From the NCBI GenBank assembly GCA_002422165.1, contig DITQ01000006.1, positions 25,384 to 89,383 on the forward strand: a stretch of 64,000 nt of DNA. Reading direction: 5' to 3'. Of the stretch, positions 3,967 through 25,049 are shown piece after piece; position 1 is the first letter of the stretch, and each line of letters opens with the position of its first letter. A program made the translations under genes and the position numbers. The notes under the pieces were generated by a model. That model was given only the letters and a program-made list of their open reading frames with translations. It ran no database searches and had not been told where the DNA came from. Source of the stretch: Candidatus Pacebacteria bacterium UBA6180 (GTDB lineage Bacteria; Patescibacteriota; Microgenomatia; UBA1400; PJMF01).

Positions 3967-3999
3967 GCTATTATGTCATTAATTCTAGAAATTAATTTG

Positions 4000-6597: not shown

Positions 6598-6602
6598 AAC
6601 CT

Positions 6603-8540: not shown

Positions 8541-8640
8541 AAGTACAATCTGAGACTATGGTTCATCCAAAAACAGATCGTTATAAAACAGCCAATAATC
8601 ACTCCTTTTGCAGGCGAGGATCGTGTTATAATTTCGGATC

Positions 8641-9894: not shown

Positions 9895-9900
9895 AGAGAC

Positions 9901-11830: not shown

Positions 11831-12774
11831 TGCAAGAAAAAAATAGCAAGCAAAAGAAATTACTTCCTTTTCTCAAAGATAAATCCACTATCGAGAGAGA
11901 GTTATTTAAAAACCGACTCAATGAAAAGAAATTATTATCTTCTATCGAAAGCGCCTTAAGCCAAAAAAAGGGATCGCCATTTGTCATTCCAAAGCGCGGT
12001 CAGCCAGTCATTGCCCTAATGTCTGGAGGCATCGATACAACTGTGGTGATTGGCATGCTGATTGAGTTTTTTGGCTTGAGAGTTTACCCATTAATCATAG
12101 ACAGACAGCTACCGCATTCAAGAAAAATAAAAGCTGTTTGCAAAGACTTGAGCGACTATTTCAAAAATAAATACCCGACACACTTTCACCAACCTTTTAC
12201 CATTTCTCAAAAAATGCCTCACCAAAAATTTTCTTTACTTTATAGATTTGAAAATACTATTCTTTTTGACCAACAACGCGAAGGAATACCCCTACAACCA
12301 GCACTATATGCTTACCTCGCAGTTCAGTATGGCAAATACCTGCGTGCCACTCAAAATGTATATCCCCAGACTATTTTTGGAGGCTGGTTGCCAGAAAACT
12401 CAGAGTGGTATCGATATGAATCACTTTCCTCGCTTCGGTCTACGATGTTGCAAATAGCCACCATGGAACATGACTTTTCATGGCAATTCACCTCACTAGC
12501 AATTGAAAAAGAGCTGGGTTTATATTTATCAAAAGCACAGCTTGTTGCCATCGGGCATACACTTGGGATCCCACTAGAAAAAACGTGGACCTGCTACAAG
12601 GGAAAGCGTCACCAGTGCGGAACCTGTCCTCCATGCTGGACGCGGCAGCAAGCCTTCAAATTAGCGGGAGTAGTTGATGAGACAATTTATAAAGAAGGCT
12701 TTAATTTGAAAAATAAATTTAATGATGGCAGAGAATTTTTAAGAGATGTCAAAAGAAATTTCATTAAAAAATAA
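11827..12774 (+). CDS. QueC/ExsB-like PP-loop ATP pyrophosphatase with C-terminal Cys cluster
   Basis: PP-loop VIALMSGGIDTTVVIGML (SGGxDS/T) and C-terminal CYKGKRHQCGTCPPCWTRQQAF, a Zn-ribbon-like CxxC...CxxC as in QueC. Confidence 0.55.
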   Translation: MMQEKNSKQKKLLPFLKDKSTIERELFKNRLNEKKLLSSIESALSQKKGSPFVIPKRGQPVIALMSGGIDTTVVIGMLIEFFGLRVYPLIIDRQLPHSRKIKAVCKDLSDYFKNKYPTHFHQPFTISQKMPHQKFSLLYRFENTILFDQQREGIPLQPALYAYLAVQYGKYLRATQNVYPQTIFGGWLPENSEWYRYESLSSLRSTMLQIATMEHDFSWQFTSLAIEKELGLYLSKAQLVAIGHTLGIPLEKTWTCYKGKRHQCGTCPPCWTRQQAFKLAGVVDETIYKEGFNLKNKFNDGREFLRDVKRNFIKK

Positions 12775-13606
12775 AGCCGTTAAGTTTTATGACAATATTA
12801 AACTTAATTTAGGCATTAAGAAGTTTTTTAAGTACATTGCAAAATTGTTACTCAAAATACACTATTTTTTACTCGCACTATTGTATTATTACCCAAAATA
12901 TAAGGTTGAAAATTATGTTGGTAGAAAAATATCTCCTAAACTTAAAGTTCTAGAAGGACCCTTTAAGAAGTTGGCTTATCCATATTTTCCACTACCAGAG
13001 CAGCACTTTTCCACTATTTTACCTAAAATTAGTGGCGCATACGAAAAAGAGCTTTTTCCAGTCATCAAACAAATAAATAAACAAAAATATAGTGTTTTTA
13101 TAAATATTGGTTCTGATGAGGGCTATTATGCAGTCGGACTTGGCAAGCTAAATCCACAGGCAAAAGTCTACGCTATTGATATAAATAAAAAAGCTCTTTC
13201 TTTTTCAGTAGAGATGGCAAAAAATAATGATGTTAAAAATTACTTTAGCGTCGAATCTTCATCTCCATTTGCCATAGACAGGCTAATTGAAAATAAAACA
13301 TGCATCATTTGTGATTGCGAAGGATATGAAAAAACACTCCTAAACCCCAAAAAAATAGGTGGCCTAATCAATTCAGACATATTGGTGGAAGTTCATGGCA
13401 AAGCTATTGGCGATATACTACAAAAAAGATTTAGCCCAACGCATAATATCAAAAAAATTACACAAACCAACAAAATGATTGCCAAAGTCCCAATAAAATT
13501 TCTGTTTTTAAATTATTTTCACACCATAGATGAGATGAGATCTGAAGAATGCTTCTGGTTTTTTTTGAAAAGCCACTCCCACAACCCTAAAGGATCGGGT
13601 GCTTGA
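12746..13606 (+). CDS. FkbM-family methyltransferase-like protein
   Basis: SVFINIGSDEGYYAVGLG (compare DIGANIGYYS) and ICDCEGYEKTLL (compare IKIDVEGAEYEVL) match the FkbM family. Confidence 0.45.
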   Translation: MSKEISLKNKAVKFYDNIKLNLGIKKFFKYIAKLLLKIHYFLLALLYYYPKYKVENYVGRKISPKLKVLEGPFKKLAYPYFPLPEQHFSTILPKISGAYEKELFPVIKQINKQKYSVFINIGSDEGYYAVGLGKLNPQAKVYAIDINKKALSFSVEMAKNNDVKNYFSVESSSPFAIDRLIENKTCIICDCEGYEKTLLNPKKIGGLINSDILVEVHGKAIGDILQKRFSPTHNIKKITQTNKMIAKVPIKFLFLNYFHTIDEMRSEECFWFFLKSHSHNPKGSGA

Positions 13607-13613
13607 GATTAGG

Positions 13614-14342
13614 TTAAGTATTATTGCTACTTAAATTTTCTAGCTCAATTAGCTTGTTGCAATTCTTTTTGAGAAAATCTCTCCACTGACTCACCATTAA
13701 TACAGTCGTTTCATTCTCAATCATGTCTTGAATGGTTTTTTCAGATTTTTTCCTAAATTTTTCATCTCCCATGTTCATTACTTCATCTAATAACAAAATA
13801 TCTGGCTCAGCATGAACAGCCACACTAAAACCTAATCTTAACTTCATTCCACTAGAGTATGTATACAATGGCGCAGTAATAAAATCGCCAATACCAGCAA
13901 AATCTACAATTTGAGCAAATTTGGCCTTTGTCTCCTCTCTAGACATGCCAATCACCAAGCCATTGAGAAAAATATTTTCCTGACCGGTCAAGTCTGGATG
14001 GAAACCAGCCTCAAGATCTATTAGAGAAATAATCCTGCCCTTTGTCTTGACTTTACCAGTGGTCGGTGCACTAATGCCGGCAATGATTTTGAGCAAAGTG
14101 GTCTTACCAGCACCATTTGGTCCATGAAAACCCACCTTTTCACCTTTTCGAATCTGTAAATTGACGTCTTGCAGTGCCCAGTATTCCTCCCTCGGCTGAA
14201 AACGCAAGACACGACCAACGTCCTCTGCCAAAGTCGGCTTCTCATGGTGGACGATGTACTTTTTGCCCACACCCTTGAGGTTGATTACCACCTCACCAAG
14301 GTTTTTACTTTTGCGTATAATTTCTTCTTTTAAAGTTGTCAT
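13614..14342 (-). CDS. ABC transporter ATP-binding protein, polysaccharide/teichoic-acid export type (Wzt/TagH-like)
   Basis: Walker A GFHGPNGAGKTTLLKII, ABC signature YSSGMKLRLGF, Walker B ILLLDEV. 242 aa with no C-terminal carbohydrate-binding extension. Confidence 0.85.
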   Translation of the reverse strand: MTTLKEEIIRKSKNLGEVVINLKGVGKKYIVHHEKPTLAEDVGRVLRFQPREEYWALQDVNLQIRKGEKVGFHGPNGAGKTTLLKIIAGISAPTTGKVKTKGRIISLIDLEAGFHPDLTGQENIFLNGLVIGMSREETKAKFAQIVDFAGIGDFITAPLYTYSSGMKLRLGFSVAVHAEPDILLLDEVMNMGDEKFRKKSEKTIQDMIENETTVLMVSQWRDFLKKNCNKLIELENLSSNNT

Positions 14343-14380
14343 TTTTTATAATTTACCTTTTTATTTAACCCTGATGAAAA

Positions 14381-14536
14381 ACATTACAATTAATGTTCTG
14401 ACCATTGGAGGTGCTGGGCAAAGAACTAGAAAAATAAATAAAGCAAATCGACAGCACCTCCATTGAGAGAAACAAAGATTGCCTCATTAATAAGCATTTG
14501 TTTTTAGTTGAACGTGTCAGAACACTAATTGTAATG
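14381..14536. repeat. nested inverted-repeat element (about 156 bp) in the wzm-wzt intergenic spacer; MITE-like or structured RNA
   Basis: Outer 22-bp arms acattacaattaatgttctgac (14381-14402) and gtcagaacactaattgtaatgt (14515-14536) with 1 mismatch. Inner perfect 11-bp arms tggaggtgctg (14406-14416) and cagcacctcca (14452-14462). Confidence 0.5.
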
Positions 14537-14540
14537 TTTC

Positions 14541-15383
14541 TCATAACCAATCATCAAAATTTTTACTTTCCCTTCCAAAAACCCACCAACCCAGATAAAA
14601 CAGATAAAAGATCACTAGTAAGCCGACCCAACTAAATTCAAGCAAAGTAATCGGCAGTCCCATCAGCGCATAATGAAACAACTCAACAATAAAAGTCATC
14701 GGATTGAGATAAAAAACTGGCCAAAGCAAATCAGGCAAGAGATTGAGTGCATAAATCACTGGTGTGGCATAAAACCACAGCATCACTGCTAACTGCACTA
14801 TAAAGTTAACATCTCTAAAACGAACGTTGAGTGAAGAAGTGAAAAGTGATAGGCCAACTGTAAAAATCAAAAGAAGTAAAATCGCCGGCAAAAGCCACAA
14901 CATCCTTCCCAAATAGCTAAAAAGCGCCAGCATTCCGTACCCTTCCACGAATAGCTTGTCCGCCACCAGCGCCCCCACTAACAAAACCAAAGCGATTAAA
15001 AAATGAAATAAATTAGACAAAATAATCGACAAAACAATTGCCTCACGAGGAAATTTGGCTTTTTTAACCAAGTTGCGCTCATAAAAAAAGGCTGGTGTGC
15101 ATTTGGTCAAACTTTGGGCAAAAAAATTCCAGGGTAGAAGCCCTGCGAACAAAAATAGAAAATAATTATCTACTCGCACCGGCACAAAAAACTGAAAAAC
15201 AAAACCCATCACCATCATCTGTAATAAAGGGTTGATGACAATCCACAAAAACCCCAAGGTCGCATGTTTATACCGCGCCTTAATCTCCTTCTTCGTCATC
15301 ACCAGCAAAAAATCTAGCCAATGACTCTGCTTCTTAGTCAAGTGTAAAAGATTCTTCATCAGGTCACCAACATACCACACCAA
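14541..15383 (-). CDS. ABC-2 type transporter permease (Wzm/TagG-like)
   Basis: 280-aa polytopic membrane protein with about 6 hydrophobic helices, immediately upstream on the same strand of the Wzt-like ATPase. Confidence 0.7.
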   Translation of the reverse strand: MVWYVGDLMKNLLHLTKKQSHWLDFLLVMTKKEIKARYKHATLGFLWIVINPLLQMMVMGFVFQFFVPVRVDNYFLFLFAGLLPWNFFAQSLTKCTPAFFYERNLVKKAKFPREAIVLSIILSNLFHFLIALVLLVGALVADKLFVEGYGMLALFSYLGRMLWLLPAILLLLIFTVGLSLFTSSLNVRFRDVNFIVQLAVMLWFYATPVIYALNLLPDLLWPVFYLNPMTFIVELFHYALMGLPITLLEFSWVGLLVIFYLFYLGWWVFGRESKNFDDWL

Positions 15384-15451
15384 TTACCTATTGCAAAGAC
15401 ATGCAGAATTAAGTTATTCTTAAAAAGCGCGTTAATTATTGTATACGTCCA

Positions 15452-16837
15452 ATGACAAGCCCTCGAGATTTTTTACCATCTAAATATAAAAGTCAAATGG
15501 GCGACTTGCCAAAATCTGGCAAGCCTCCTGTAGACCCAAATGGATCCACTTCTCCCACTCTTGATGCTTCGGCTACTCTTGACGCTTCCACATCCCTTTC
15601 CCCAGACACAACCTCTGTTAAAGAACCAGAAAACTCGCCTTGGGCTGATTTGACAAAGGTTGACAGCTCACCTAGCTATCCAAGCCTAACCAATCCAGAC
15701 TTAAAATCAAATTCGGTTGATGAAGTCAAACCAAACGCTACGGCTGAAACAATGGCAAAGGATGAAACAAGCAACGACCAACCAAAAAATAAACCGCGCT
15801 TGAACAATCTGGCTGGAGTTTTGATCATTTTCTTTTTGGCTACTGGTTTAGTTGCCAGCTATTTCTTAATGCAAGAAAGTCAAGACACGAGACAGCAAGC
15901 AAGCTCAGGAGTTGGAGCGAGCTGTTATGTTGGCTCACAACCTAGTCCCCCATTCGATAAAAAGAGCTGTAACTGTAATGGCACCAATGTCTGGTTTGAT
16001 AACACAGGCTACTGTGGAGATAAAGCAGCATCTGGAGAAACCACAAGCACTCCAGGAACCGCCCATGATGCCACCTATGGACTTTGTGCTGTTTATTACA
16101 AGTATGGTTGCACCAACACCGGATCGCCCAACGATCCTCCTGGCAGCACTAATTACGCTGGTTGCTGGACTTGTACTAGCTCTGGCTGCTCTATAAAATC
16201 TGGCCCAGGTTACGAGCATTGCGCCGCTAACTGTCAAGTTTGGAAATGGAAGTGCGATCGCATCGATAATCTTTCCGGAGGTTGTCAGGATGGAACTCCC
16301 AGCGTTAGCTCTTCCCAATCCTTTAGTGCAAATTGTGGTGCTGAACAAATAGATGTGACTTGCGGTGGACAATCAAGAGATTTTCGAAGCAGGATCAATG
16401 ATCAGCCCTGCACCACTACCACCACGCCTCCTCCAACTACCACCACGCCTCCTCCAACTACCACCACGCCTCCTCCAACTGTTACACCAACTCCAACTCC
16501 CACTCCTACGCCTCCGCCTGTTTTGGTTTGTGCTGACATCGAGATGCTTGATGCAACTGGCAACACCATGACTGAAGATGATGACAAAGACTTAAGAGAT
16601 GGAGATCAGGTTCGCTTCCGAGCCAACCACTCAGGAAGTGCCACTGGCAAGATTACTTATGAATTTAGAATCTTAGCGCCAAATACTTCTACTTGGACAA
16701 ATCTGACCAATGCTGATGCTAGTGTATCTGCGCCAAATGTATCTGCCATATATACCATCGTAAGCTCTGGAGAGCATGTCGCTCAAGCCAGGGTTTGTCT
16801 AGACGGTCAATGTCAATCCTGGGAAACAATTAACTAA
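15452..16837 (+). CDS. Cys-rich surface protein: N-terminal membrane anchor and (TTTTPPP)3 plus (TP)n linker
   Basis: S/T/D-rich N-terminal region, helix LAGVLIIFFLATGLVASYFLM, a Cys-rich module, TTTTPPPTTTTPPPTTTTPPPTVTPTPTPTPTPPP, then another Cys-containing domain. Confidence 0.5.
   Translation: MTSPRDFLPSKYKSQMGDLPKSGKPPVDPNGSTSPTLDASATLDASTSLSPDTTSVKEPENSPWADLTKVDSSPSYPSLTNPDLKSNSVDEVKPNATAETMAKDETSNDQPKNKPRLNNLAGVLIIFFLATGLVASYFLMQESQDTRQQASSGVGASCYVGSQPSPPFDKKSCNCNGTNVWFDNTGYCGDKAASGETTSTPGTAHDATYGLCAVYYKYGCTNTGSPNDPPGSTNYAGCWTCTSSGCSIKSGPGYEHCAANCQVWKWKCDRIDNLSGGCQDGTPSVSSSQSFSANCGAEQIDVTCGGQSRDFRSRINDQPCTTTTTPPPTTTTPPPTTTTPPPTVTPTPTPTPTPPPVLVCADIEMLDATGNTMTEDDDKDLRDGDQVRFRANHSGSATGKITYEFRILAPNTSTWTNLTNADASVSAPNVSAIYTIVSSGEHVAQARVCLDGQCQSWETIN
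16405..16467. repeat. perfect 21-bp tandem repeat x3 (actaccaccacgcctcctcca) encoding TTTTPPP
   Basis: Three identical consecutive 21-bp units inside the CDS 15452..16837, followed by a degenerate (acn ccn) TP stretch. Confidence 0.8.
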
Positions 16838-16839
16838 TC

Positions 16840-17841
16840 ATGCTAACTAACCAAGAACCTAAACCAACCAGTTACCTCAAAGCCAGTCAAGGCGATGAGG
16901 TTAAGGTGACCAAGAAGCAAAACTTCAAGGCTGTGGCCATGCTGCTTGGATTCCTAGTCTTCATCATTGGAGCAATTGGCGTCTTCATGATCAGCCAGAA
17001 TCAAGACACTACTCCTGTAGCCCCAACTGCGCCTCAATCACAACCAGCAGCCTTTATCGAGAAAGCTCAAACCTGTACTTTAGTCTTTGACGTCACCGAG
17101 CCAGACAAACTTGCCTGTGGCGAAGTTGGCTGTGAAAGCGACAGTGACTGTGGCGACGAGCTAATTTGCACCACCGCCGATGATGACAAGAAATACTGCT
17201 CCAAAACTGACCACCGAATAGTTGACAGTTGCAAAAAAGATCCTAATGCAGTGAACTGCTGCAGCATCCCTGTAGAAGAACCTCTCGTCTGTGGCGAAGT
17301 TGGCTGTGTTTCCACCGACGATTGTAGTGAAGGATTAGTTTGTATTACCGCCGATGACGACAAGAAATACTGCGCTGATCAAAGATATTTGAGCGCTTGT
17401 ATTGCTGAACCCAATGAGGACAGTTGTTGTAGTGCTCCTCCCACCACTATTACTCCAACTGACGAACCTACAGTAACTCCAACTGATGAGCCCACGGTCA
17501 CTCCAACTGGTACGGTAACTGTTACTAAAACTGTTACTCCTACCACAACTGTGACTAACACTGTAACTCCAAGTGTCACCACTGTTATCACCACCGTTGG
17601 TTGTAACGATGTCTGTCAGGCCAATGCTGACTGCGCCAACATCAGTCACATTTGTTATCAGGGTCAGTGTCGTCTTGACGTCAATCCCACCGATGCTCAA
17701 TGCAGACTGCCAAGCGGTGAGACAACCATTGTTCGTCCAGTCCATGTGCCTACTCAAAGTGGCCCAGCAGACTGGCTCAACTACCTCAAAGCTGGACTAG
17801 GTGTCCTAGGCATTGGCGCCCTACTCCTCCTGCTTTTGTAA
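16840..17841 (+). CDS. paralogous Cys-rich surface protein: N-terminal anchor, two ~35-aa Cys-rich repeats, T/P linker, C-terminal hydrophobic tail
   Basis: Helix AVAMLLGFLVFIIGAIGVFMI. Repeats LACGEVGCESDSDCGDELICTTADDDKKYCS and LVCGEVGCVSTDDCSEGLVCITADDDKKYCA (nt 17112-17198 and 17289-17373). PTDEPTVTPTDEPTVTPTGTVTVT linker. Ends GLGVLGIGALLLLLL. Confidence 0.5.
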   Translation: MLTNQEPKPTSYLKASQGDEVKVTKKQNFKAVAMLLGFLVFIIGAIGVFMISQNQDTTPVAPTAPQSQPAAFIEKAQTCTLVFDVTEPDKLACGEVGCESDSDCGDELICTTADDDKKYCSKTDHRIVDSCKKDPNAVNCCSIPVEEPLVCGEVGCVSTDDCSEGLVCITADDDKKYCADQRYLSACIAEPNEDSCCSAPPTTITPTDEPTVTPTDEPTVTPTGTVTVTKTVTPTTTVTNTVTPSVTTVITTVGCNDVCQANADCANISHICYQGQCRLDVNPTDAQCRLPSGETTIVRPVHVPTQSGPADWLNYLKAGLGVLGIGALLLLLL

Positions 17842-17889
17842 AGAATTTCAGAGAAAAGTCTGCTAAAATTGCGACGGCAAGATGAAAAC

Positions 17890-17963
17890 GCGTGTGTAGC
17901 TCAATTGGTTAGAGCTCCAAGCTTATACCTTGGCGGTTCTAGGTTCGAGTCCTAGCACACGCA
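17890..17963 (+). tRNA. tRNA, anticodon UAU (tRNA-Ile reading AUA) by manual folding
   Basis: 7-bp acceptor stem gcgtgtg/cacacgc, D-arm tagctcaattggttagagc, anticodon stem ccaag/cttgg with loop cttatac (U33, anticodon tat at 17924-17926, A37), T-arm ctagg-ttcgagt-cctag, discriminator A. No encoded CCA. Confidence 0.7.
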
Positions 17964-18007
17964 CGTGGCTAGTCCCCGGAGAGGACAGGTGCTAAAATAA
18001 TAAAGTT

Positions 18008-18406
18008 ATGCTTGTTCGTCTCCTCAAAATTATTGCCATTCTCATCCTGCTTTTTTTCTCTTATCAATTTGCTCGTGCACAGGGTGTTCTTAAAGGGGTC
18101 TGGTTTGAGCAGATAGATGGACAAATCGAAGAATTCAGACACAAAATTACCGGACAAGAATCCTCAAGTATAGACAGAGATCTCGAAAAATTAGGCGAAG
18201 ACGGTCTCAGGCAAGTCAATGTCTTGGCTGACAAGGCCAAAGAGGCCGGCAGTGTCGCCCAAGAATTCGTCCAGGAAGTGGTCAAAATCGACGAAAACAA
18301 GGATCAAAACCTCTCTGAAAAAGCCTTTGAGTATGGCCGCTACATCTACTGCCAGGAAGTGGTTAAACAATACGAAACTTCTTCGAAGGAAAGTGGCACT
18401 TTCTAG
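18008..18406 (+). CDS. small secreted hypothetical protein
   Basis: Signal-peptide-like start MLVRLLKIIAILILLFFSYQFARAQG, then a charged 100-aa region. Confidence 0.35.
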   Translation: MLVRLLKIIAILILLFFSYQFARAQGVLKGVWFEQIDGQIEEFRHKITGQESSSIDRDLEKLGEDGLRQVNVLADKAKEAGSVAQEFVQEVVKIDENKDQNLSEKAFEYGRYIYCQEVVKQYETSSKESGTF

Positions 18407-18422
18407 TTGTCGATTAACTCCC

Positions 18423-19421
18423 TTAAAACAAGTGCTCCTCCAAATAGGCTGGCTGCTCACCAACCCCAGAGGAAATGATTTTCTTCACACTGGATAAAAC
18501 TTCCAAAACTTCCCTGACCTGCATTTCATACTGCGGCAGGGTCAACACGTGAACATTGAATCCCGTGTTAATGGTGAAATAAGCCGGTACGCCCTCGCGC
18601 CGCAACTGGCGCACTGCTTGCATCACCTCGACTGTGCCTGGGTAAAAAAGCAAAATGGTCGGCGAACTAGTAAGCAAAATGCTGTGAAATTCGAGTGCTT
18701 CTGCTTCAGCAAGTTCACCTAAGGCTACAAAGTCTTTGCTTAATATGCTGTTTTTCGCCTGCACTAGCTTGGTCTTCATTCGCTCCTGGCGAGCTGCAAA
18801 AAACGGACTGCTCTGCGCTAAATCGTGCCCCTCTGTCGAACTCATGATTTTTTTGTCCTCGCTGACAATCGCCACCAAATCTCTGATGGGCAGTTGATCG
18901 ACATCCGCAAAACTCTCTGAGTAAGAACTCTCAGAAGAGTCGCCATCCAACCACTCGACGAAGCCACCACAAACACACCTACAAGCTGTACCAGAACCTT
19001 GGCGAGCCAAGATTGATAGTTCTTTTTGACTTAGTTCTAGGCCCAAAGCCTTGGTAGCGGCTATTGTTAAGGCTGCAAAGCCCGAGCCAGAGCTGGATAG
19101 ACCAGTACTTTTGGGAAAATTGTTTTGAGAAACCACGCGAGCAAAGAGGTTTTTTGCAGACAAACCCTGCTCTCTGGCCAGAGCGCGCACGCGATCGAGC
19201 TGCTTGACCACCCGACCAGCTTCACCTTCTTCCACCATTCCGTCGATCGTTATCTGATCTTTATCCAGAGTCTCTAAAAATTCAACCGTGGTAGTGCTGT
19301 GTAGCGAATCCAAAACCATGGACAGACTGCCGTTGGCGGGCAAGCGCAAAACCTTGTCTTTTTTGCCCCAGTATTTGACGAGGGCGATATCGCTGTTGGC
19401 TCGAACGGTTGTTTTAGTCAT
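18423..19421 (-). CDS. mvaD: diphosphomevalonate decarboxylase (MVD)
   Basis: N-terminal IALVKYWGKKD and the GHMP-like P-loop GLSSSGSGFAALTIA are hallmarks of mevalonate diphosphate decarboxylase. Confidence 0.85.
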   Translation of the reverse strand: MTKTTVRANSDIALVKYWGKKDKVLRLPANGSLSMVLDSLHSTTTVEFLETLDKDQITIDGMVEEGEAGRVVKQLDRVRALAREQGLSAKNLFARVVSQNNFPKSTGLSSSGSGFAALTIAATKALGLELSQKELSILARQGSGTACRCVCGGFVEWLDGDSSESSYSESFADVDQLPIRDLVAIVSEDKKIMSSTEGHDLAQSSPFFAARQERMKTKLVQAKNSILSKDFVALGELAEAEALEFHSILLTSSPTILLFYPGTVEVMQAVRQLRREGVPAYFTINTGFNVHVLTLPQYEMQVREVLEVLSSVKKIISSGVGEQPAYLEEHLF

Positions 19422-19423
19422 AT

Positions 19424-20410
19424 TTAATTTTCCAACCTCACTCCTTCAGCATTAGTTTTTACCTCAATAATTTTACCACTAACTGAAGCGATCGCCTGCG
19501 CTACAGCAGCGCTCTGAGCTGGTTTAGCCACAGCCAGCATACAATCTCCCCCTCCTGCGCCAGACAGCTTGGCACCTAGAGCTCCGGCCGCCAAACTGGC
19601 CACAATTAAATTCTCTAATTCGCTGCTACTAACCTGCAGCTGACGCAGTAAATTTTGGTTTGCTGTCATTAACTCGCCCACTTTCGCAAAATCGCTTGCC
19701 GTCAAAGCCGACCTGGCCTGCTCAACCAAATTGCTAATTTGCTCAAAAATGCTGGCGATTTGCTGCTGATTTTCAGAGTAGGCCGCTTGCACCTTACGAA
19801 TTAAAGTGGCTGTATCAGCCTTAATGCCAGTATAGCCAACAACTAACGGCAGCTCATCGATTGCCAAAGGCAACACCGAGGGCTGCTTTGCTGGAGCCTT
19901 TGGAGTGACGTAATACAATGTCCCGCCCCAAATTGCCGCAGCGATGTCGAATCCGGAAGCCACGCCTTGAACGCTCAAAACTACCTGATAACAAAGATCA
20001 AACAATTCTTCGTTGTCTAGTCGTACCCCGTAAAACTCGCCCAACGCTTTGGCCAAAGCCACCGTGCTAGCGCTGCTGGAACCCAAGCCGTAAGAGCTGG
20101 TAAACTCGTTTTTGCTCAAAACTTTGACTCCATGCTCTTGGGGATGGCGCTGCAAGAAAAAACTCAAGCAAGTTTCCAAAAAACTAGCTGCTTTGAGCAA
20201 GTTGCCTTGTCCAAGCTCTTGTCGACTTTTGTGATAATCAAACAAAGCTAAATCCGGCGCTTCGAGACTAAAAAAGTGTTCATCGTTTTCCTCCACCGTC
20301 ACGCTCAGGCGCAGATCCACTGCCGTCACGAGACAAGGATGACCAAAAACCACACTGTGTTCGCCAAAAAGCATTAGTTTTCCCGGGGCAGAGGCTTTGA
20401 CTTTATGCAT
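19424..20410 (-). CDS. mvaK2: phosphomevalonate kinase (GHMP kinase, ERG8-type)
   Basis: APGKLMLFGEHSVVFG, GHMP motif GLGSSSASTVALAKAL, C-terminal GAKLSGAGGGDCMLAV (compare SGAGGGDC of bacterial PMK). Start trimmed to MHKVK to give an 8-nt overlap with the upstream gene. Confidence 0.65.
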   Translation of the reverse strand: MHKVKASAPGKLMLFGEHSVVFGHPCLVTAVDLRLSVTVEENDEHFFSLEAPDLALFDYHKSRQELGQGNLLKAASFLETCLSFFLQRHPQEHGVKVLSKNEFTSSYGLGSSSASTVALAKALGEFYGVRLDNEELFDLCYQVVLSVQGVASGFDIAAAIWGGTLYYVTPKAPAKQPSVLPLAIDELPLVVGYTGIKADTATLIRKVQAAYSENQQQIASIFEQISNLVEQARSALTASDFAKVGELMTANQNLLRQLQVSSSELENLIVASLAAGALGAKLSGAGGGDCMLAVAKPAQSAAVAQAIASVSGKIIEVKTNAEGVRLEN

Positions 20411-21296
20411 TTTGTCCTCCTTTTGACTCACCGAGGCTTGCTCCAAAAAAATCTAAACCCTGCACCTGCAATTGATTCGATAAAAAATGTGAATCGCTGT
20501 GCGTGGCCAGAATATAGCCCGAGCCGGCCGCGACACCGCCAGCACCAGTAATTTTGCAGTGGGCACCTATTGCCTGCAACTTGACAATGATTTTTTTGGC
20601 TGCCTCACCAACCACGCCCAACTCCTCCAGCAAAGCTTGATTTTGGTCAAACAACTGCGGCTGCCAGCGACCTTTTTGCAAATCCTCATGCATCTTGAGG
20701 CTAAGCTCAGCAATTTTGGCAATAGTTGCTGGAGCTTTAGGATTATTTTTGACCAAAGTGACCATTTCTCCAGTTGATTCGCTAGCTGCTCCAGAATTAA
20801 TTAGGAAAAACTTTTGCTCGGTCAAAATTGCTGCTTGCAAAGGAGTGCTCTCTCCACCCTGAAAAGCCAAGAGTCCGCCATAAACCACGATCGCGGGGTC
20901 AGCGCCGCTTGAGCTACCATGGATGAAATTTTCGGCTTCAAGCACCAGCTGATAAAGCTCTGCTTTGGTCAGTTCTCGACCAAAAAAGTTCATTACTGCC
21001 TGGAGCAAGGCAGCCGCCAAAGCCGCCGAAGAGCCTAGTCCCGATTTGACGGGCAGAGTTGAATCAATTTTGATAGCTACAGCCAGATCTTTTCGGCCCA
21101 GCACTCGCGCTGCCAACTGCAAAAGGTGCTGCAAATAAGCGTCGCTTCGCTGCTCCAGCGATAATTCACCTGCGCTCACGCTAGCGCGCACCCCTAAGTC
21201 CAAACTCGCTAATAAAGCCAAGTGACCAAAAACCACGCTGTGTTCACCAGTCAGGATAACTTTGCCTGAAAAAAAGGCCGTGCTCGTCTTAGACAT
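20403..21296 (-). CDS. mvaK1: mevalonate kinase (GHMP kinase)
   Basis: FSGKVILTGEHSVVFG and SGLGSSAALAAALLQAV. 297 aa. The MK versus PMK assignment of the two GHMP genes is by length and C-terminal motif only. Confidence 0.6.
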   Translation of the reverse strand: MSKTSTAFFSGKVILTGEHSVVFGHLALLASLDLGVRASVSAGELSLEQRSDAYLQHLLQLAARVLGRKDLAVAIKIDSTLPVKSGLGSSAALAAALLQAVMNFFGRELTKAELYQLVLEAENFIHGSSSGADPAIVVYGGLLAFQGGESTPLQAAILTEQKFFLINSGAASESTGEMVTLVKNNPKAPATIAKIAELSLKMHEDLQKGRWQPQLFDQNQALLEELGVVGEAAKKIIVKLQAIGAHCKITGAGGVAAGSGYILATHSDSHFLSNQLQVQGLDFFGASLGESKGGQNA

Positions 21297-21576
21297 GGGC
21301 TGCTTTCAGCCCATAAGCAATCACTTCTTCTGGCGCTTCTTTTTTAATCTTGCGCAAGACCAATTTAACTTGGTCGCCAATCTCAAAACTTTCACCGGCC
21401 ACGCCCATCAGGGAAATTTTTTCTTCTCCAAGATCAACAAGTAAATAAGCGTAAGGCAAAAAAGCAACCTGATCGCTGGCCGCCACTTCCATCAATGAGG
21501 CCGAGATAACTGTGCCCTCTTTGCCGAGATATTTTGACCAATTTTTGTTGTTGCGCCAACTTTCAGTTGTCTTCAT
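21289..21576 (-). CDS. DUF35-like OB-fold protein (putative scaffold of the thiolase/HMG-CoA synthase complex)
   Basis: 95-aa ORF between thiolase and MK. YLGKEGTVISASLMEVA...YAYLLVDLGEEKISLMGVAGESFEIGDQVKLV resembles the OB-fold half of DUF35 proteins. No Zn-ribbon cysteines are present. Confidence 0.45.
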   Translation of the reverse strand: MKTTESWRNNKNWSKYLGKEGTVISASLMEVAASDQVAFLPYAYLLVDLGEEKISLMGVAGESFEIGDQVKLVLRKIKKEAPEEVIAYGLKAAHV

Positions 21577-21594
21577 ATTCTTTTTTGTTTATTA

Positions 21595-22710
21595 TTAAAT
21601 TCCAAGCACATTGACTACCGCCGTCGCTCCGCTGCCGCCGACGTTGTGGGTTAGGCCGCGCTCGATTTGGCCGGCTTCAATCATCGCGCTTAAAAAAGAG
21701 ACTTGCTTGACGCCAGTGGCGCCGACCGGGTGTCCGCAAGCTTTGAGACCACCGGAAGGATTGATGATCACTTGCCCGCCGTAAGTTGCCTGGCCAGCGG
21801 CGATGGCACTTGCTGCCTCGCCTTTGGCAAAAAAGCCCAAATCCTCAGTCGCTAAAATCTCGGCAATGCTAAAACAATCGTGCACTTCGGCCGCTTGAAT
21901 ATCTTTTTGTCTCAATTTGGCCATTTTTAGCGCCTTAGAAGCTGCAATTCTTGTGGCAGCTAACTCGCCTAGGTCCTGACGGTCTTGGAGAGCTAAGGTA
22001 TCCTGAGCGTGACCAAAACCAAGCAATTTGGTTTTTCTCGAGGAGGGCTTACTGCTGAGAATCACCGCCGCCACCCCATCAGTGATGGGCGAGCAATCAA
22101 GCAAGCGCAGAGGGTCAGCTACCATGACGGAGCTGCCAACCTGATCGAGAGTAAATTCTTTGTGAAACTGAGCAGCAGGGTTAGTCATGGCGTGATGGTG
22201 GTTTTTGACTACCACGCTAGAAAGCTGCTCGCGAGTCGTCCCATAGCGCTTGATGTGATAATTAGCCAAAACCGCGTACAGGGCTGGAAAAGTTGAGCCA
22301 TATTCTTTGTCGCGACTAGCCGCAGTAGCCAAAATGGTGCTGGTTTCGCTGCTGCTGACGTCAGTCATTTTTTCCACACCCAGAACCAAAACTGTCTGGT
22401 AAAGTCCACTACGGATGGCCTGTTCTGCTGCGATTACTGCCAGGCCGCCAGAGGCACAGGCTCCCTCCACCCGCATCGCTGGTGGAAAATGTGCAAACTG
22501 CTCGCTGACTAGAGCTCCGAGATGACGTTGTTCGTTGAAGCTCCCACCGGCTTTATTGGCCACAAAAATGGCGTCTATCTCGGCAGGATCAAGTTCGCTG
22601 TCAGCAAGCACGCCAGCCACACCTTCTTTGACCAGATCGGTCAAACTTTGAGTCCATAATTCGCCAAATTTACCTATATATCTACCAATTATTTTTGTCT
22701 CAGTGTGCAT
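21595..22710 (-). CDS. thiolase (acetyl-CoA C-acetyltransferase), short archaeal-type
   Basis: Active-site region VEGACASGGLAVIAAEQAIRSG, C-terminal GHPVGATG and NVGGSGATAVV. 371 aa. Overlaps the HMGCS gene by 11 nt. Confidence 0.85.
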   Translation of the reverse strand: MHTETKIIGRYIGKFGELWTQSLTDLVKEGVAGVLADSELDPAEIDAIFVANKAGGSFNEQRHLGALVSEQFAHFPPAMRVEGACASGGLAVIAAEQAIRSGLYQTVLVLGVEKMTDVSSSETSTILATAASRDKEYGSTFPALYAVLANYHIKRYGTTREQLSSVVVKNHHHAMTNPAAQFHKEFTLDQVGSSVMVADPLRLLDCSPITDGVAAVILSSKPSSRKTKLLGFGHAQDTLALQDRQDLGELAATRIAASKALKMAKLRQKDIQAAEVHDCFSIAEILATEDLGFFAKGEAASAIAAGQATYGGQVIINPSGGLKACGHPVGATGVKQVSFLSAMIEAGQIERGLTHNVGGSGATAVVNVLGI

Positions 22711-23764
22711 TTTGCTCCCTCATTTTGTGGTAAGTCGCTAGATCAATTTCCTGCAGAGCAGCAATTTGCTCGGCCAGGGTGTGAGTGAATTTTTGGCGAA
22801 ACTTAGGCAAAGCAGCTGTCGTTTCAAACAAAAAGGCATCAGCACCAGCACCTGAACCATAGGAGCAAAGCAAAATTTTGGCACCAGCTGGAGCCACATC
22901 AAGCACAGCAGTCAAAGCCAGTAGAGAGGCGGCGGCATAGGTGTTACCAATTTTTTTGACGACTAGACTGGGAGCGAGCTGCTCACGACTAAAACCAAGT
23001 TGTTTGGCGATGGCTTGAGGAAATTTGCCGTTAGGAGTGTGAAAAATGCAGAAATCTAACTCGCTGGGCGCAAGCTTGGTCTGCTCGAGCAAGCGGCGAG
23101 TCGCCATAGTGACGTGCTTGAAATAGGCTGGCTCACCAGTGAAGCGACCGAAGTGTTCTGGATAGGATTGCCCGGGCTTGCGCCAAAAATCTGGCGTGTC
23201 GGTCGCCACCGAGGTGGTAGCGAGCAAATTAGCTAAAGTTGGCTGCGAAGCGCTGTCCGCAGCGAGGATGAAGGCGGCGGCGCCAGCCGCCGCAGTGTAT
23301 TCCAGAGCGTCTCCAGGACGGGCTTGGGCGGTATCCGCGCCGATCGCCAGCGTAGCGTGAGCCATCTCTGAATTGACGTAAGCCGCAGAAATCTGCAAAG
23401 CCTGCGAGCCAGCTTTGCAAGCGAACTGCAAATCAGCCATGCTTAGGAAGTCACTCAATCCCAAGGCTTCCTTGACCACTGCCCCAGAAGGTTTGACTGC
23501 GTAAGGGTGGCTTTCGCTGCCGATGAAAAGTGTTTCGATCTCTGTTGTTTGACCACCTGCGCTTCGAAAGCGTTCTAATGCTTGATAAGCAGCAGCAGTG
23601 GACAGGGTAACTGTGTCCTCGTCAATTGCGGGGATAGTTTTGGAAGAAACACCTAAAGCTTTGGCCATGCTTCCGTCTTTACCCTGGCTAACCGCGATTG
23701 TCGAAGTGCTGACTTTTTTATCTGGAATAGCGGCGCCATAGGCAACGATGCCAACTTGTTTCAT
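22700..23764 (-). CDS. hydroxymethylglutaryl-CoA synthase (short, archaeal-type)
   Basis: MKQVGIVAYGAAIP start, GSESHPYAVKP, FACKAGSQAL (catalytic Cys context). 354 aa, the size of the archaeal-type HMGCS that pairs with thiolase and DUF35. Confidence 0.8.
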   Translation of the reverse strand: MKQVGIVAYGAAIPDKKVSTSTIAVSQGKDGSMAKALGVSSKTIPAIDEDTVTLSTAAAYQALERFRSAGGQTTEIETLFIGSESHPYAVKPSGAVVKEALGLSDFLSMADLQFACKAGSQALQISAAYVNSEMAHATLAIGADTAQARPGDALEYTAAAGAAAFILAADSASQPTLANLLATTSVATDTPDFWRKPGQSYPEHFGRFTGEPAYFKHVTMATRRLLEQTKLAPSELDFCIFHTPNGKFPQAIAKQLGFSREQLAPSLVVKKIGNTYAAASLLALTAVLDVAPAGAKILLCSYGSGAGADAFLFETTAALPKFRQKFTHTLAEQIAALQEIDLATYHKMREQNAH

Positions 23765-23766
23765 AA

Positions 23767-25026
23767 TTATTTTCTTTTTCTCGCTAACTTTTGGTGAGCT
23801 GCTGCCAGAGAGTGACTGCTAAGCGCTGCCAAGCCAGAGATTTCTGCTGCCAGGACTCCGGTAGCCAAAATTGCTGCCAGTTTACTCGGGTTTGGATCAT
23901 CGTCATTTTGTAAAATTAAACTGCGCACTTCTTTTTGAGCAGGCAAAGCCGTCCCTCCGCCCACACTGCCCAGAGGCAAATCGGATAAATGCACTGCGAA
24001 ATATAAGCCGGTACTGCCATCTGCCATTAAAGCTTCTTCGACGATGGTGTTACCTTGACTAGCTTCGACGATGTGAGCGCTGTCCTGGCCAGTAGCCAGA
24101 TAAAAAGCAGCTGTCACGTTAGCAAATTGCATGTTGTGATCACTCGAACCAGCTAGCGTCGAGCCTAGTTGATTTTTACTGTGGTGAGTGGCAAGCAGTT
24201 TTTTGGAGCTGGTTTTGAGAACTTCCTCCAAAATTTCTTCGCTAAGCAAGACTTCCGCCTGAGCGCTGTAGCCGCGACCAAGTATTTGATTGATGTGAGA
24301 AGCTTTTTTGTCTGTGCAGACGTTGCTACTGAGACTCAGCATCTGGATGCCTGGGTAGGTGTTCAAAAAATCCTCCCACAACTTCTGCAAAGCGATGGTG
24401 ACCATGTTCATCCCCATCGCCAAATCGGTGTCAAAACTTAAACGAACAAACACTTGTCGCCCACGCACGAAGCTCTGTAAAGCTAGAAATTTGAGATGAG
24501 AACTTCCATCTTCAGTGACTTGACGAATTTTTGTCCTTGTTTCAGCCAGATCTAGGAATTCTGCAAAGGCAAAGGCCTGCTTGCCATCAGCAAAAGCAAA
24601 GCTGGGCGCGCGAGTCATGCCGGCATTTTTGACGAAAAGTTGCGCCCCACCAGCTTGATTAATAGCCTTGAGACCGCGACTAACACTAGCCACGAGTGCT
24701 CCCTCGCTGGTAGCGAGCGGCACGAAAGAATTCTCTCTCTGGCCGTATTGCTCGAATTCCACAGGCCCAGCTAAGCCGAGCGGCAAACTGATGGCCCCAA
24801 CCATGTTTTCACAGTTGTGCGCATTGGCCGCTGCTAAATCAGCATCGACCGCAAAAAGATGCGGAGTTGGTGCAGCTTTCCAGCTTGAAGCCAATTGTTT
24901 TTGGCGATCCCTGATCAGCTGCAGATCATCTGCGTTAGTATTGTTGTTTTTGAAAAACGACATTGCATGATAATTAGTCGCAAAAAGGAACAAAATCATG
25001 CAAAAGAAAGTTTTAGGCTCTTTCAA
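23767..25026 (-). CDS. HMG-CoA reductase, class I
   Basis: DLAMGMNMVT (class I DAMGMNM motif), SLSSNVCTDKKAS, GSVGGGT. The N-terminal 40 aa are hydrophobic, so the true start may be a later Met. Confidence 0.85.
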   Translation of the reverse strand: MKEPKTFFCMILFLFATNYHAMSFFKNNNTNADDLQLIRDRQKQLASSWKAAPTPHLFAVDADLAAANAHNCENMVGAISLPLGLAGPVEFEQYGQRENSFVPLATSEGALVASVSRGLKAINQAGGAQLFVKNAGMTRAPSFAFADGKQAFAFAEFLDLAETRTKIRQVTEDGSSHLKFLALQSFVRGRQVFVRLSFDTDLAMGMNMVTIALQKLWEDFLNTYPGIQMLSLSSNVCTDKKASHINQILGRGYSAQAEVLLSEEILEEVLKTSSKKLLATHHSKNQLGSTLAGSSDHNMQFANVTAAFYLATGQDSAHIVEASQGNTIVEEALMADGSTGLYFAVHLSDLPLGSVGGGTALPAQKEVRSLILQNDDDPNPSKLAAILATGVLAAEISGLAALSSHSLAAAHQKLARKRK

Positions 25027-25049
25027 AATAACTTTTTTTAGAGGAAAAT

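What the first reader, a model, noticed from the sequence alone, without database searches (positions are those of the whole stretch)
17890..17963. tRNA with UAU anticodon (AUA-decoding tRNA-Ile without lysidine)
Manual folding gives a canonical cloverleaf whose anticodon loop is c-u-UAU-a-c. Most bacteria read AUA with a CAU-anticodon tRNA modified by TilS (lysidine). A genomically encoded UAU tRNA-Ile is rare: it is known from a few reduced genomes that lack tilS. It could also instead be a mis-folded tRNA of another identity.
Basis: seen in the sequence. Interest (0 to 1): 0.5.

Follow-up and report, generated by a model that had tools for sequence, protein, structure and literature searches.

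The report
Isoleucine tRNA with encoded UAU anticodon
This is a genuine isoleucine tRNA gene that reads the AUA codon with a directly encoded UAU anticodon; textbooks call this rare, but it turns out to be the usual arrangement in this organism's group of ultra-small bacteria (Patescibacteria, also called CPR).

Summary
ARAGORN and Rfam both call a canonical 74-nt tRNA at 17890-17963 (+) with anticodon loop C-U-UAU-A-C (Rfam 71.7 bits against a gathering score of 29).

The window is a chromosome piece from a Candidatus Pacebacteria-like bacterium (class Microgenomatia, Patescibacteria/CPR).

The gene is not a one-off. Across 89 distinct sequences the cloverleaf is 100% paired, and 15 of 21 pairs show compensatory changes. 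In at least 8 related species the tRNA keeps the same neighbours and a conserved -10-like element.

AUA makes up about 1% of codons here. At conserved positions it aligns with Ile, Val or Leu in distant homologues.

A published table of 95 complete Patescibacteria genomes shows a complementary pattern: two Ile tRNAs go with only two CAU tRNAs, or one Ile tRNA goes with three. All 12 Microgenomatia are of the first type. So this tRNA most likely replaces tRNA-Ile2(CAU) and lysidine.

I could not test tilS or IleRS in this genome.

Verdict: a real gene, a new member of a known kind, and ordinary for its lineage. The lineage-wide extent is discussed in none of the papers I could search.

The parts
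17890..17963 (+). tRNA-Ile(UAU) gene, 74 nt, discriminator A73, no encoded CCA
   Evidence: ARAGORN; Rfam RF00005 at 71.7 bits; 100% identical to tRNAs in L129, L165, L171, L173 and L201; covariation in alignment A1
17924..17926 (+). anticodon TAT (U34 A35 U36) within loop CTTATAC at 17922-17928
   Evidence: read from the sequence; ARAGORN places the anticodon at position 35
17861..17869 (+). TGCTAAAAT, an extended -10-like promoter element 20 nt upstream of the tRNA (inferred, not shown to be used)
   Evidence: read from the sequence. The same TGNTA(A/T)AAT element lies 15-30 nt upstream of the tRNA in syntenic relatives. The strict two-hexamer scan did not call it.
16840..17841 (+). upstream neighbour (333 aa, no Pfam match). 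Its conserved C-terminal ~62 aa, ending in a hydrophobic tail, lies directly before the tRNA in many relatives. It is context, not part of the tRNA.
   Evidence: tblastn at 57-92% identity to ORF ends just upstream of the tRNA in L171, L132, L136, L192, L165, L219, L173, L182, L147, L156 and others; Pfam negative
18008..18406 (+). downstream neighbour (132 aa, no Pfam match), conserved in the same position in relatives and followed by the mevalonate operon. Context only.
   Evidence: tblastn at 40-56% identity in L165, L171, L136, L201, L192, L132, L219 and L129; Pfam negative

Best explanation
This is a functional chromosomal gene for an isoleucine tRNA with a genome-encoded UAU anticodon, probably transcribed from its own promoter. 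The organism is a Candidatus Pacebacteria-like bacterium (class Microgenomatia, Patescibacteria/CPR). The tRNA reads AUA codons by direct U34-A pairing. With U rather than C at position 34 it needs no lysidine. In this class it most likely replaces, rather than supplements, the usual tRNA-Ile2(CAU) plus TilS pair. It belongs to a very large, vertically inherited tRNA family spread across most Patescibacteria classes. Shown here: the gene, its fold, conservation with compensatory changes, conserved synteny, use of AUA codons, and AUA falling at Ile/Val/Leu positions of conserved proteins. Inferred: charging by IleRS, absence of tilS and of a CAU-type tRNA-Ile2 in this particular genome, whether U34 is modified, and how misreading of AUG is avoided. 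In Mycoplasma mobile the ribosome and a Trp-to-Arg change in IleRS do that job (PMC3575796).
For: Identity and fold. Of those, 56 titles name Patescibacteria taxa explicitly and only 4 name another phylum. ARAGORN calls the intact copies tRNA-Ile(tat). In alignment A1, 89 distinct sequences are 100% paired, 15 of 21 pairs carry compensatory changes, and the covariation score is 0.523 against 0.151 when shuffled, with 0 of 500 shuffles as high. Taxon: the ValRS best named hit is Ca. Pacebacteria GW2011_GWF2_38_9 at 78%, followed by Woesebacteria at 63%. Vertical inheritance: the order [333-aa ORF]-tRNA-[132-aa ORF]-mevalonate operon is kept in L129, L201, L136, L192, L132, L165, L171 and L153, at 47-80% protein identity. 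A conserved -10-like element lies upstream. Demand for the tRNA: 188 AUA in 18,896 codons (9.9 per 1000, 15% of Ile codons), in 42 of 49 genes. Meaning of AUA: of the 12 AUA codons in GlgA, 11 lie within the alignments. At 7 of these the Arabidopsis SS4 or E. coli homologue has an aliphatic residue: I at 40, V at 62, I at 84, V at 178 and 341, I/V at 388, L/I at 448. The other 4 align with A/P, S/T, E/A and E/S. None aligns with Met. A screen of over 250,000 genomes reports no AUA reassignment (PMC8629427). Replacement of tRNA-Ile2(CAU): in PMC13011429 Table S2 (95 complete Patescibacteria genomes), ARAGORN counts of Ile tRNAs against CAU tRNAs are complementary. There are 39 genomes with Ile >= 2 and CAU <= 2, and 45 with Ile <= 1 and CAU >= 3. 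All 12 Microgenomatia are of the first type.
Against: tilS, IleRS and the full tRNA set of this genome were out of reach. The window plus about 13 kb of extensions holds no other tRNA and no PP-loop ORF, but that is under 10% of a genome. The reading of Table S2 is mine; the paper never mentions UAU, TilS or lysidine, and the table gives counts per amino acid, not per anticodon. Ten of the 95 genomes have both >= 2 Ile and >= 3 CAU tRNAs, so coexistence does occur in the phylum. Three E. coli IleRS identity elements (from my own knowledge of Nureki et al. 1994) are absent: 4-69 is U-A, 29-41 is A-U, and position 38 is C. The invariance of the D-arm, G31, C38 and C39 in A1 was forced by the search pattern. 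No experimental evidence of expression or charging exists.
Confidence: 0.75

Rival explanations
1. Redundant decoder. The genome also has tilS and a tRNA-Ile2(CAU), and the UAU tRNA is a second, possibly minor, AUA reader, as proposed for Lactobacillus casei and L. plantarum.
For: Some bacteria carry both (PMC3575796). Ten of 95 complete Patescibacteria genomes have >= 2 Ile and >= 3 CAU tRNAs. tilS was not tested in this genome.
Against: All 12 complete Microgenomatia genomes have at most two CAU tRNAs, enough only for initiator and elongator Met. Across the 95 genomes the counts are complementary rather than additive. Nothing TilS-like turned up in about 0.96 Mb of Patescibacteria loci plus the window; this is weak evidence, since only about one hit would be expected.
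Confidence: 0.1
2. U34 is enzymatically modified. The tRNA works as described, but its wobble U carries a modification that restricts pairing to A (pseudouridine as in the eukaryotic PsiAPsi anticodon, or a 2-thio or 5-substituted U). It would then differ from the unmodified U34 of M. mobile.
For: Eukaryotic tRNA-Ile(UAU) carries PsiAPsi (PMC3575796), and haloarchaeal mutant tRNA-Ile(UAU) carries 5-cyanomethyl-U (PMC3895270, seen only as title and abstract). An unmodified U34 normally risks reading AUG.
Against: In the one bacterial case that has been measured, U34 is unmodified (PMC3575796). CPR bacteria appear to avoid other wobble modifications, for example they lack tRNA-Arg(ACG) and inosine (PMC8629427). 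No candidate enzyme is visible in the window.
Confidence: 0.3
3. Mobile-element or phage-derived tRNA. The gene was acquired horizontally to serve the AUA-rich, low-GC genes next to it.
For: The tRNA sits near a switch from roughly 32-43% GC genes to 47-52% GC genes. AUA is 20.9 per 1000 codons in genes below 40% GC and 3.6 per 1000 in genes at or above 45% GC.
Against: The best viral tRNA is only 73% identical, and no close match exists in 50,697 phage records. The same flanking genes surround the tRNA in at least 8 species-level relatives. No integrase or repeat boundary lies nearby: the flanks are ABC transporter genes, hypothetical ORFs and the mevalonate operon.
Confidence: 0.03
4. The tRNA is not an Ile tRNA in practice. 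It is a pseudogene, or it is charged with another amino acid because AUA has been reassigned.
For: The E. coli-type identity pairs C4-G69 and C29-G41 and A38 are missing. The single-sequence MFE structure is not a cloverleaf.
Against: The Rfam score is 71.7 bits. The stems are fully paired with 15 covarying pairs. A73, A35, U36, A37 and U12-A23 are present. AUA codons align with I/V/L and never with M in GlgA homologues. No AUA reassignment was found in over 250,000 genomes.
Confidence: 0.02

Closest known systems
Mycoplasma mobile tRNA-Ile2(UAU) (Taniguchi et al. 2013, PMC3575796)
   Same: A bacterial, genome-encoded UAU anticodon that reads AUA in a small genome which, in M. mobile, lacks tilS and tRNA-Ile(CAU).
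   Different: In M. mobile the unmodified U34, the IleRS Arg865 determinant and ribosomal discrimination against AUG were shown by experiment. None of that is known here. The M. mobile change is a recent, isolated event inside Tenericutes, whereas this tRNA belongs to a family spanning most classes of a whole phylum.
Bifidobacterium and Neorickettsia tRNA-Ile(UAU), which have eukaryote-type IleRS and no tilS (PMC3575796; PMC8450103)
   Same: The UAU tRNA takes the place of tRNA-Ile2(CAU) across a whole clade.
   Different: Those clades use the eukaryote/archaeal-type IleRS. The IleRS type of this organism could not be determined.
Lactobacillus casei/plantarum, Cyanothece and Ferrimonas, where tRNA-Ile(UAU) coexists with tilS (PMC3575796)
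   Same: An encoded UAU tRNA-Ile in a bacterium.
   Different: In those organisms the CAU/TilS system is retained. In this class the CAU tRNA count argues against that.
Nanoarchaeum equitans and Korarchaeum cryptofilum tRNA-Ile(UAU) (PMC8450103)
   Same: Ultra-small or deep-branching prokaryotes that lack the CAU-type tRNA-Ile2 and use UAU.
   Different: They are archaea, and the enzyme dispensed with is TiaS (agmatidine), not TilS.
Phage-encoded tRNA-Ile(UAU)
   Same: Same anticodon and a similar D-arm; very common on viral contigs.
   Different: At most 73% identical. This gene is chromosomal, syntenic and vertically inherited.
Canonical bacterial tRNA-Ile2(CAU) plus TilS (lysidine)
   Same: Same job, reading AUA but not AUG. 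CAU tRNAs sharing the AAUUGGUUA D-loop and GGUUC variable region are abundant in metagenomes, often next to tRNA-Leu(UAA) and tRNA-Arg(UCU). This hints that the UAU family has a tRNA-Ile2-like body.
   Different: Position 34 is U rather than C, so lysidine is impossible. Position 38 is C rather than A, and 31-39 is G-C rather than A-U.

Membership tests
tRNA (Rfam RF00005) | Covariance-model score at or above the curated gathering score over the full model | tested here: met
   71.7 bits against 29, model positions 1-71 of 71, E = 1e-13
tRNA (Rfam RF00005) | Cloverleaf maintained by compensatory substitutions among homologues | tested here: met
   89 distinct sequences, 100% of cells paired, 15 of 21 pairs with changes on both sides
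Bacterial tRNA-Ile(UAU) AUA decoder ('tRNA-Ile3', M. mobile type) | Genome-encoded U34-A35-U36 anticodon in a 7-nt loop with U33 and A37 | tested here: met
   Loop CUUAUAC at 17922-17928
Bacterial tRNA-Ile(UAU) AUA decoder ('tRNA-Ile3', M. mobile type) | Isoleucine identity elements (E. coli set recalled from Nureki et al. 1994: A73, A35, U36, t6A37, A38, U12-A23, C4-G69, C29-G41) | tested here: inconclusive
   A73, A35, U36, A37 and U12-A23 are present. Position 38 is C, 4-69 is U-A and 29-41 is A-U. The 4-69 and 29-41 pairs vary freely in the family, so the E. coli set evidently does not transfer.
Bacterial tRNA-Ile(UAU) AUA decoder ('tRNA-Ile3', M. mobile type) | AUA codons are used and mean isoleucine | tested here: met
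   9.9 AUA per 1000 codons, in 42 of 49 genes. At 7 of the 11 alignable GlgA AUA positions homologues have I, V or L; none has M.
Bacterial tRNA-Ile(UAU) AUA decoder ('tRNA-Ile3', M. mobile type) | No tRNA-Ile2(CAU) in the same genome | not testable with these tools
   Only about 77 kb of this genome was reachable, with no other tRNA in it. Indirect support: 12 of 12 complete Microgenomatia genomes have at most 2 CAU tRNAs.
Bacterial tRNA-Ile(UAU) AUA decoder ('tRNA-Ile3', M. mobile type) | No tilS in the same genome | not testable with these tools
   No TilS or PP-loop ORF in the window or in 0.96 Mb of related loci, which is uninformative at that sampling depth. A TilS profile search returned only Enterobacterales and Aquificae relatives.
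Bacterial tRNA-Ile(UAU) AUA decoder ('tRNA-Ile3', M. mobile type) | IleRS able to accept the UAU anticodon (Arg/Lys at the E. coli Trp905 position, or a eukaryote-type IleRS) | not testable with these tools
   IleRS is not in the window. The class I synthetases found in related loci are LeuRS.
tRNA-Ile2(CAU) / lysidine system | C34 as the substrate of TilS | tested here: not met
   Position 34 is T at 17924, and likewise in all loci of the family as retrieved
Phage or mobile-element tRNA | Location in a variable, non-syntenic element, or close similarity to viral tRNAs | tested here: not met
   Conserved flanks in at least 8 relatives; best viral tRNA 73% identical; no close phage record

The most novel reading that the evidence does not exclude
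Most of the Patescibacteria (CPR) superphylum appears to have dispensed with tRNA-Ile2(CAU), and presumably with TilS and lysidine, reading AUA with a conserved, genome-encoded tRNA-Ile(UAU). This covers Microgenomatia, Dojkabacteria, WWE3, ABY1, Doudnabacteria and most Paceibacteria. Saccharimonadia, Absconditabacteria and some Gracilibacteria and Paceibacteria keep the CAU system. That would make 'lysidine-free' AUA decoding a major bacterial mode rather than a curiosity of a few reduced genomes. It may reflect either an ancient state or repeated C34/U34 switching, and it implies co-adapted IleRS and ribosomes across the radiation.
Probability: 0.6. Interest if true: 0.6.

Novelty: new member of a known kind. 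Interest (0 to 1): 0.4.

Why it matters
The gene itself is a routine part of this organism's translation apparatus. What it points to is broader. TilS is described as conserved in about 98% of annotated bacterial genomes (PMC12514573), and UAU-type tRNA-Ile is described as a rare exception, even in a February 2026 preprint (10.64898/2026.02.03.703510).

The scan here shows the UAU type in well over a hundred species-level Patescibacteria genomes. A published tRNA census, which its authors do not interpret in this way, fits replacement of the CAU type in whole classes.

If that is confirmed, it changes how widespread lysidine-independent AUA decoding is thought to be. It adds to the picture of CPR bacteria avoiding wobble-base modification; they also lack the inosine-type tRNA-Arg. 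It identifies a natural set of IleRS and ribosome variants that must tell AUA from AUG without lysidine. It also matters for annotation: marker sets or completeness estimates that expect tilS or an Ile2(CAU) tRNA would misjudge these genomes.

Tried and rejected
1. Looking for tilS directly. A regex for SGGxDS and phmmer --max with E. coli TilS against all ORFs of the window, its extensions and 119 related loci (about 0.96 Mb) found nothing. Only about one hit would be expected even if TilS were universal, so this decides nothing.

2. A profile of the E. coli, Geobacillus and Aquifex TilS N-domains searched against 5.8 billion proteins listed only relatives of the queries. No Patescibacteria TilS could be pulled out, so neither presence nor absence in the class could be shown.

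3. Synteny route. In Firmicutes (recalled from my own knowledge), tilS-hpt lies upstream of ftsH. FtsH lies next to the UAU tRNA in L197, L206 and L238, but upstream of ftsH in L197 are an S1-domain gene and a small ORF, not tilS. This is uninformative.

4. Walking out of the window through exact-protein look-ups added only about 7.5 kb and 5 kb, with no tRNA or TilS.

5. IleRS. The ValRS-like hits in related loci are LeuRS.

6. Origin of the tRNA body. CAU tRNAs with the same D-arm and variable region are common in metagenomes and cluster with Leu(UAA) and Arg(UCU) tRNAs. Without an Ile2-specific model I could not prove they are tRNA-Ile2. Comparison with E. coli Ile1, Ile2 and Met tRNAs does not discriminate, at 55-62% identity. 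blastn against E. coli genomes gave no match.

7. The strict sigma-70 two-hexamer and terminator scan called nothing at the tRNA. The -10-like element rests on conservation only.

8. Literature. No paper in the searchable library contains lysidine together with 'Patescibacteria' or 'candidate phyla radiation'. The only one pairing lysidine with 'Saccharibacteria' is unrelated, the hits for TilS with 'Patescibacteria' are all unrelated, and no top-listed paper in the wider CPR-synonym search contains lysidine. Suzuki & Numata 2014 is not held.

Full report
**Observation.** ARAGORN finds exactly one tRNA in the 64 kb window: tRNA-Ile with anticodon tat at 17890-17964 (+). Rfam's tRNA model matches 17890-17963 end to end at 71.7 bits (gathering score 29, E = 1e-13) with no non-canonical pair. 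No other Rfam family, including group I introns, reaches its threshold anywhere in the window. Read directly, the gene has:
- a 7-bp acceptor stem and discriminator A73;
- a GCUC/GAGC D-stem with loop AAUUGGUUA;
- anticodon stem CCAAG/CUUGG and loop C-U-U-A-U-A-C (anticodon at 17924-17926);
- variable loop CGGUU and T-arm CUAGG-UUCGAGU-CCUAG;
- no encoded CCA.

Single-sequence MFE folding prefers a rod-like alternative. The comparative analysis below shows the cloverleaf is the selected structure.

**Which organism.** The window is bacterial chromosome. It carries DnaA, DnaN, RNase P protein, YidC, Jag, ValRS, Pth, RecF and a sigma factor. It also carries an archaeal-style mevalonate operon, an ATP-dependent DNA ligase, VirB4-type secretion genes and a block of glycosyltransferases. 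The ValRS has as its best named relative Candidatus Pacebacteria bacterium GW2011_GWF2_38_9 (78% identity), followed by many Candidatus Woesebacteria (63%). The same locus occurs on contigs from Logan run SRR5323109 and JGI metagenome 3300001605. So the genome belongs to the Microgenomates group (GTDB class Microgenomatia) of the Patescibacteria/CPR.

**The tRNA belongs to a very large family.**
No close match exists among 50,697 phage records.
- A much narrower pattern (exact D-arm with AAUUGG, G31, loop CUUAUAC, C39) was scanned over one genome per GTDB species.
- By title, 56 loci name Patescibacteria taxa: Paceibacterota, Parcubacteria, Kaiser-, Woese-, Pace-, Uhr-, Lipton-, Yanofsky-, Colwell-, Vogel-, Azam-, Terry-, Yonath- and Cerribacteria, WWE3, Microgenomates and Minisyncoccia.
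- Another 46 are third-party MAGs titled 'uncultured Ca. Saccharibacteria', 'Pseudomonadales' or 'Gammaproteobacteria', 13 are unnamed 'bacterium', and 4 carry another phylum name.
- Several 'Pseudomonadales' MAGs share gene order and 72-80% protein identity with this window, so those titles look like placeholders.
- Five loci have a tRNA 100% identical to the window's (L129, L165, L171 = Ca. Pacebacteria UBA6188, L173 = Ca. Woesebacteria, L201).
- ARAGORN calls the intact copies tRNA-Ile(tat).

**Selection on the structure.** I aligned 89 distinct 74-nt sequences (A1). Every one of the 1,869 base-pair cells is a standard pair. Fifteen of 21 pairs show changes on both sides. The covariation score is 0.523, against 0.151 for shuffles (0 of 500 as high) and at most 0.11 for slid registers. 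RNAalifold predicts the same cloverleaf on its own. The six pairs that never covary include five fixed by the search pattern, so they say nothing. A73 is invariant and was not forced by the pattern.

**Chromosomal context.**
- The order [333-aa ORF]-tRNA-[132-aa ORF]-mevalonate operon is conserved in L129, L201, L136, L192, L132, L165, L171 and L153, at 47-80% protein identity. This argues for vertical inheritance and against a mobile element.
- A TGNTA(A/T)AAT element lies 15-30 nt upstream of the tRNA in the window (TGCTAAAAT, 17861-17869) and in these relatives. The same motif precedes the next ORF (17990-17998). I read it as an extended -10 promoter, so the tRNA probably has its own transcript.
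- This is inference: the strict two-hexamer scan did not call it, and no terminator-like hairpin follows.

**Is there work for this tRNA?**
- In 49 ORFs of at least 150 aa there are 188 AUA codons in 18,896 (9.9 per 1000, 15% of Ile codons), present in 42 genes.
- Usage tracks gene GC content: 20.9 per 1000 in genes below 40% GC, and 3.6 per 1000 in genes at or above 45% GC (Spearman -0.71).
- GlgA has 12 AUA codons, of which 11 fall inside the alignments to Arabidopsis SS4 or E. coli GlgA. At 7 of these the homologues have an aliphatic residue: I at 40, V at 62, I at 84, V at 178 and 341, I/V at 388, L/I at 448. The other 4 align with A/P, S/T, E/A and E/S. None aligns with Met.
- The Codetta screen of over 250,000 genomes reports no AUA reassignment (PMC8629427).

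**Does it replace or supplement the lysidine system?** I could not reach the rest of this genome. The nearest evidence is Table S2 of Nakagawa et al. 2026 (PMC13011429). It lists tRNA counts per amino acid in 95 complete Patescibacteria genomes, by tRNAscan-SE 2.0, ARAGORN and tFind. ARAGORN labels every CAU tRNA 'Met', as one search shows for L238. My tally of its Ile and Met columns is:

| ARAGORN counts | Genomes | Classes |
|---|---|---|
| Ile >= 2 and CAU <= 2 | 39 | Microgenomatia 12/12, Dojkabacteria 7/7, Doudnabacteria, WWE3, UBA1384, ABY1 2/4, Gracilibacteria 2/5, Paceibacteria 13/20 |
| Ile <= 1 and CAU >= 3 | 45 | Saccharimonadia 29/36, JAEDAM01 7/7, Kazan-3B-28, Gracilibacteria 3/5, Paceibacteria 5/20 |
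| Ile >= 2 and CAU >= 3 | 10 | ABY1 2, Paceibacteria 1, Saccharimonadia 7 |
| Ile = 1 and CAU = 2 | 1 | Paceibacteria |

- The tRNAscan-SE columns agree: Ile = 2 with Met = 1 in the first group, and Ile = 1 with Met = 1 in the second.
- Two CAU tRNAs are only enough for initiator and elongator Met. The first group therefore has no tRNA-Ile2(CAU), and its second Ile tRNA is the AUA reader.
- The classes in that group are the ones my scan found carrying the UAU tRNA.
- This interpretation is mine. The paper does not mention UAU, TilS or lysidine, and the table does not list anticodons.
- On this basis I put the chance that this genome lacks tRNA-Ile2(CAU) at about 0.85. TilS would then have no substrate, so its absence is likely but untested.

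**Attempts to test TilS and IleRS.** All were inconclusive. Details are given under 'tried and rejected'.

**Mechanism.**
- Shown: a conserved, structurally constrained tRNA with U34-A35-U36, A37 and A73, in a genome that uses AUA for aliphatic positions.
- Inferred from established knowledge: it is charged by IleRS and pairs U34 with the A of AUA.
- In M. mobile, the only bacterial case studied biochemically, U34 is unmodified. IleRS there gained UAU recognition through Arg865, at the position of E. coli Trp905, and the ribosome itself rejects AUG (PMC3575796). Bifidobacterium and Neorickettsia instead have a eukaryote-type IleRS.
- Which of these applies here is unknown.
- The E. coli identity pairs C4-G69 and C29-G41 and A38 are absent. 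Pairs 4-69 and 29-41 vary freely in the family, so recognition must rest on other elements.
- CPR bacteria also lack the inosine-dependent tRNA-Arg(ACG) (PMC8629427). That fits a general tendency to encode wobble specificity in the gene rather than add it enzymatically.

[quoted passage not shown] It was still called 'rare cases' in 2026 (bioRxiv 10.64898/2026.02.03.703510). TilS is quoted as present in about 98% of annotated genomes (PMC12514573). No paper in the searchable library links CPR or Patescibacteria with lysidine or TilS. The gene is therefore a new member of a known kind and is ordinary within its own lineage. The extent of the phenomenon across Patescibacteria appears under-reported.

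**Verdict.** 'Rare' does not hold for this lineage, and the tilS test remains to be done. Confidence in the best explanation is 0.75. Interest is 0.4. The most novel reading that the evidence leaves open is phylum-scale loss of the lysidine system (probability 0.6, interest 0.6 if true).

Noticed in passing
window 38615-41208 (+): Six tandem paralogous small genes (122-163 aa), each matching the T4SS_pilin family PF18895. They lie between an ECF-type sigma factor gene (37485-38183) and a UPP synthase gene.
   Followed up: partly
window 54748-63895 (-), extended in L242: Conjugation-like type IV secretion genes lie directly beside dnaA-dnaN-rnpA-yidC-jag: VirB4 ATPase of the CD1110 family, TraC-like, PrgI-like, and very large proteins of about 1200 aa without family matches. 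This fits the reported Patescibacteria T4SS (bioRxiv 10.1101/2025.01.22.634366, title and abstract only).
   Followed up: partly
window 18423-26987: A complete archaeal-style mevalonate operon: diphosphomevalonate decarboxylase, two GHMP kinases, a DUF35/OB-fold protein, thiolase, an HMG-CoA synthase-like protein and HMG-CoA reductase. After a thioredoxin-like ORF comes a polyprenyl synthase. The operon is conserved at 51-80% identity in related MAGs.
   Followed up: partly
window 29936-31789 (-): An ATP-dependent DNA ligase of the archaeal/eukaryotic dnl1 type (617 aa, TIGR00574 E = 4e-101) in a bacterial chromosome.
   Followed up: no
window 1-15400 against 15400-25000, and gene by gene throughout: Strong GC heterogeneity between genes (0.32-0.54). 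A glycosyltransferase and envelope block at 32-43% GC adjoins genes at 47-52% GC. AUA usage is almost six times higher in the low-GC genes. Possible horizontally acquired surface-polysaccharide genes.
   Followed up: partly
window 17656-17841 (C-terminus of ORF 16840-17841); also L171, L132, L136, L192, L165, L219, L173, L182, L147, L156: The last ~62 aa of the ORF upstream of the tRNA, ending ...GLGVLGIGALLLLLL, are 57-92% conserved in ORFs that end just before the same tRNA in many Microgenomatia, and occur twice in some loci. The N-terminal parts diverge. It looks like a shared C-terminal membrane-anchor or sorting module on variable surface proteins.
   Followed up: partly
window 11827-12774 (+): A 315-aa ORF that matches only the C-terminal zinc-binding part of QueC (residues 233-279) and has no SGGxDS PP-loop motif. 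Unclear whether it is a degenerate QueC or a different enzyme.
   Followed up: no
L122, L129, L147, L156, L165, L182, L201 and other 'TPA_asm' loci: Public MAG titles such as 'uncultured Pseudomonadales bacterium' and 'uncultured Candidatus Saccharibacteria bacterium' are attached to contigs that are clearly Microgenomatia- or Paceibacteria-like by synteny and tRNA sequence. The names appear to be placeholders and should not be used for taxon counts.
   Followed up: partly
L248, L251, L263, L268, L278, L280, L282, L296, L304, L319, L340, L348 (metagenome contigs): CAU-anticodon tRNAs with the same D-arm and GGUUC variable region as the UAU family recur in tight clusters with tRNA-Leu(UAA) and tRNA-Arg(UCU), all readers of A-ending rare codons. 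These are probably tRNA-Ile2 genes of phages or AT-rich bacteria.
   Followed up: partly
L197, L206, L238: In some Patescibacteria the tRNA-Ile(UAU) lies immediately next to ftsH. In L238 a CAU tRNA sits just upstream of ftsH and the UAU tRNA just downstream on the other strand.
   Followed up: partly
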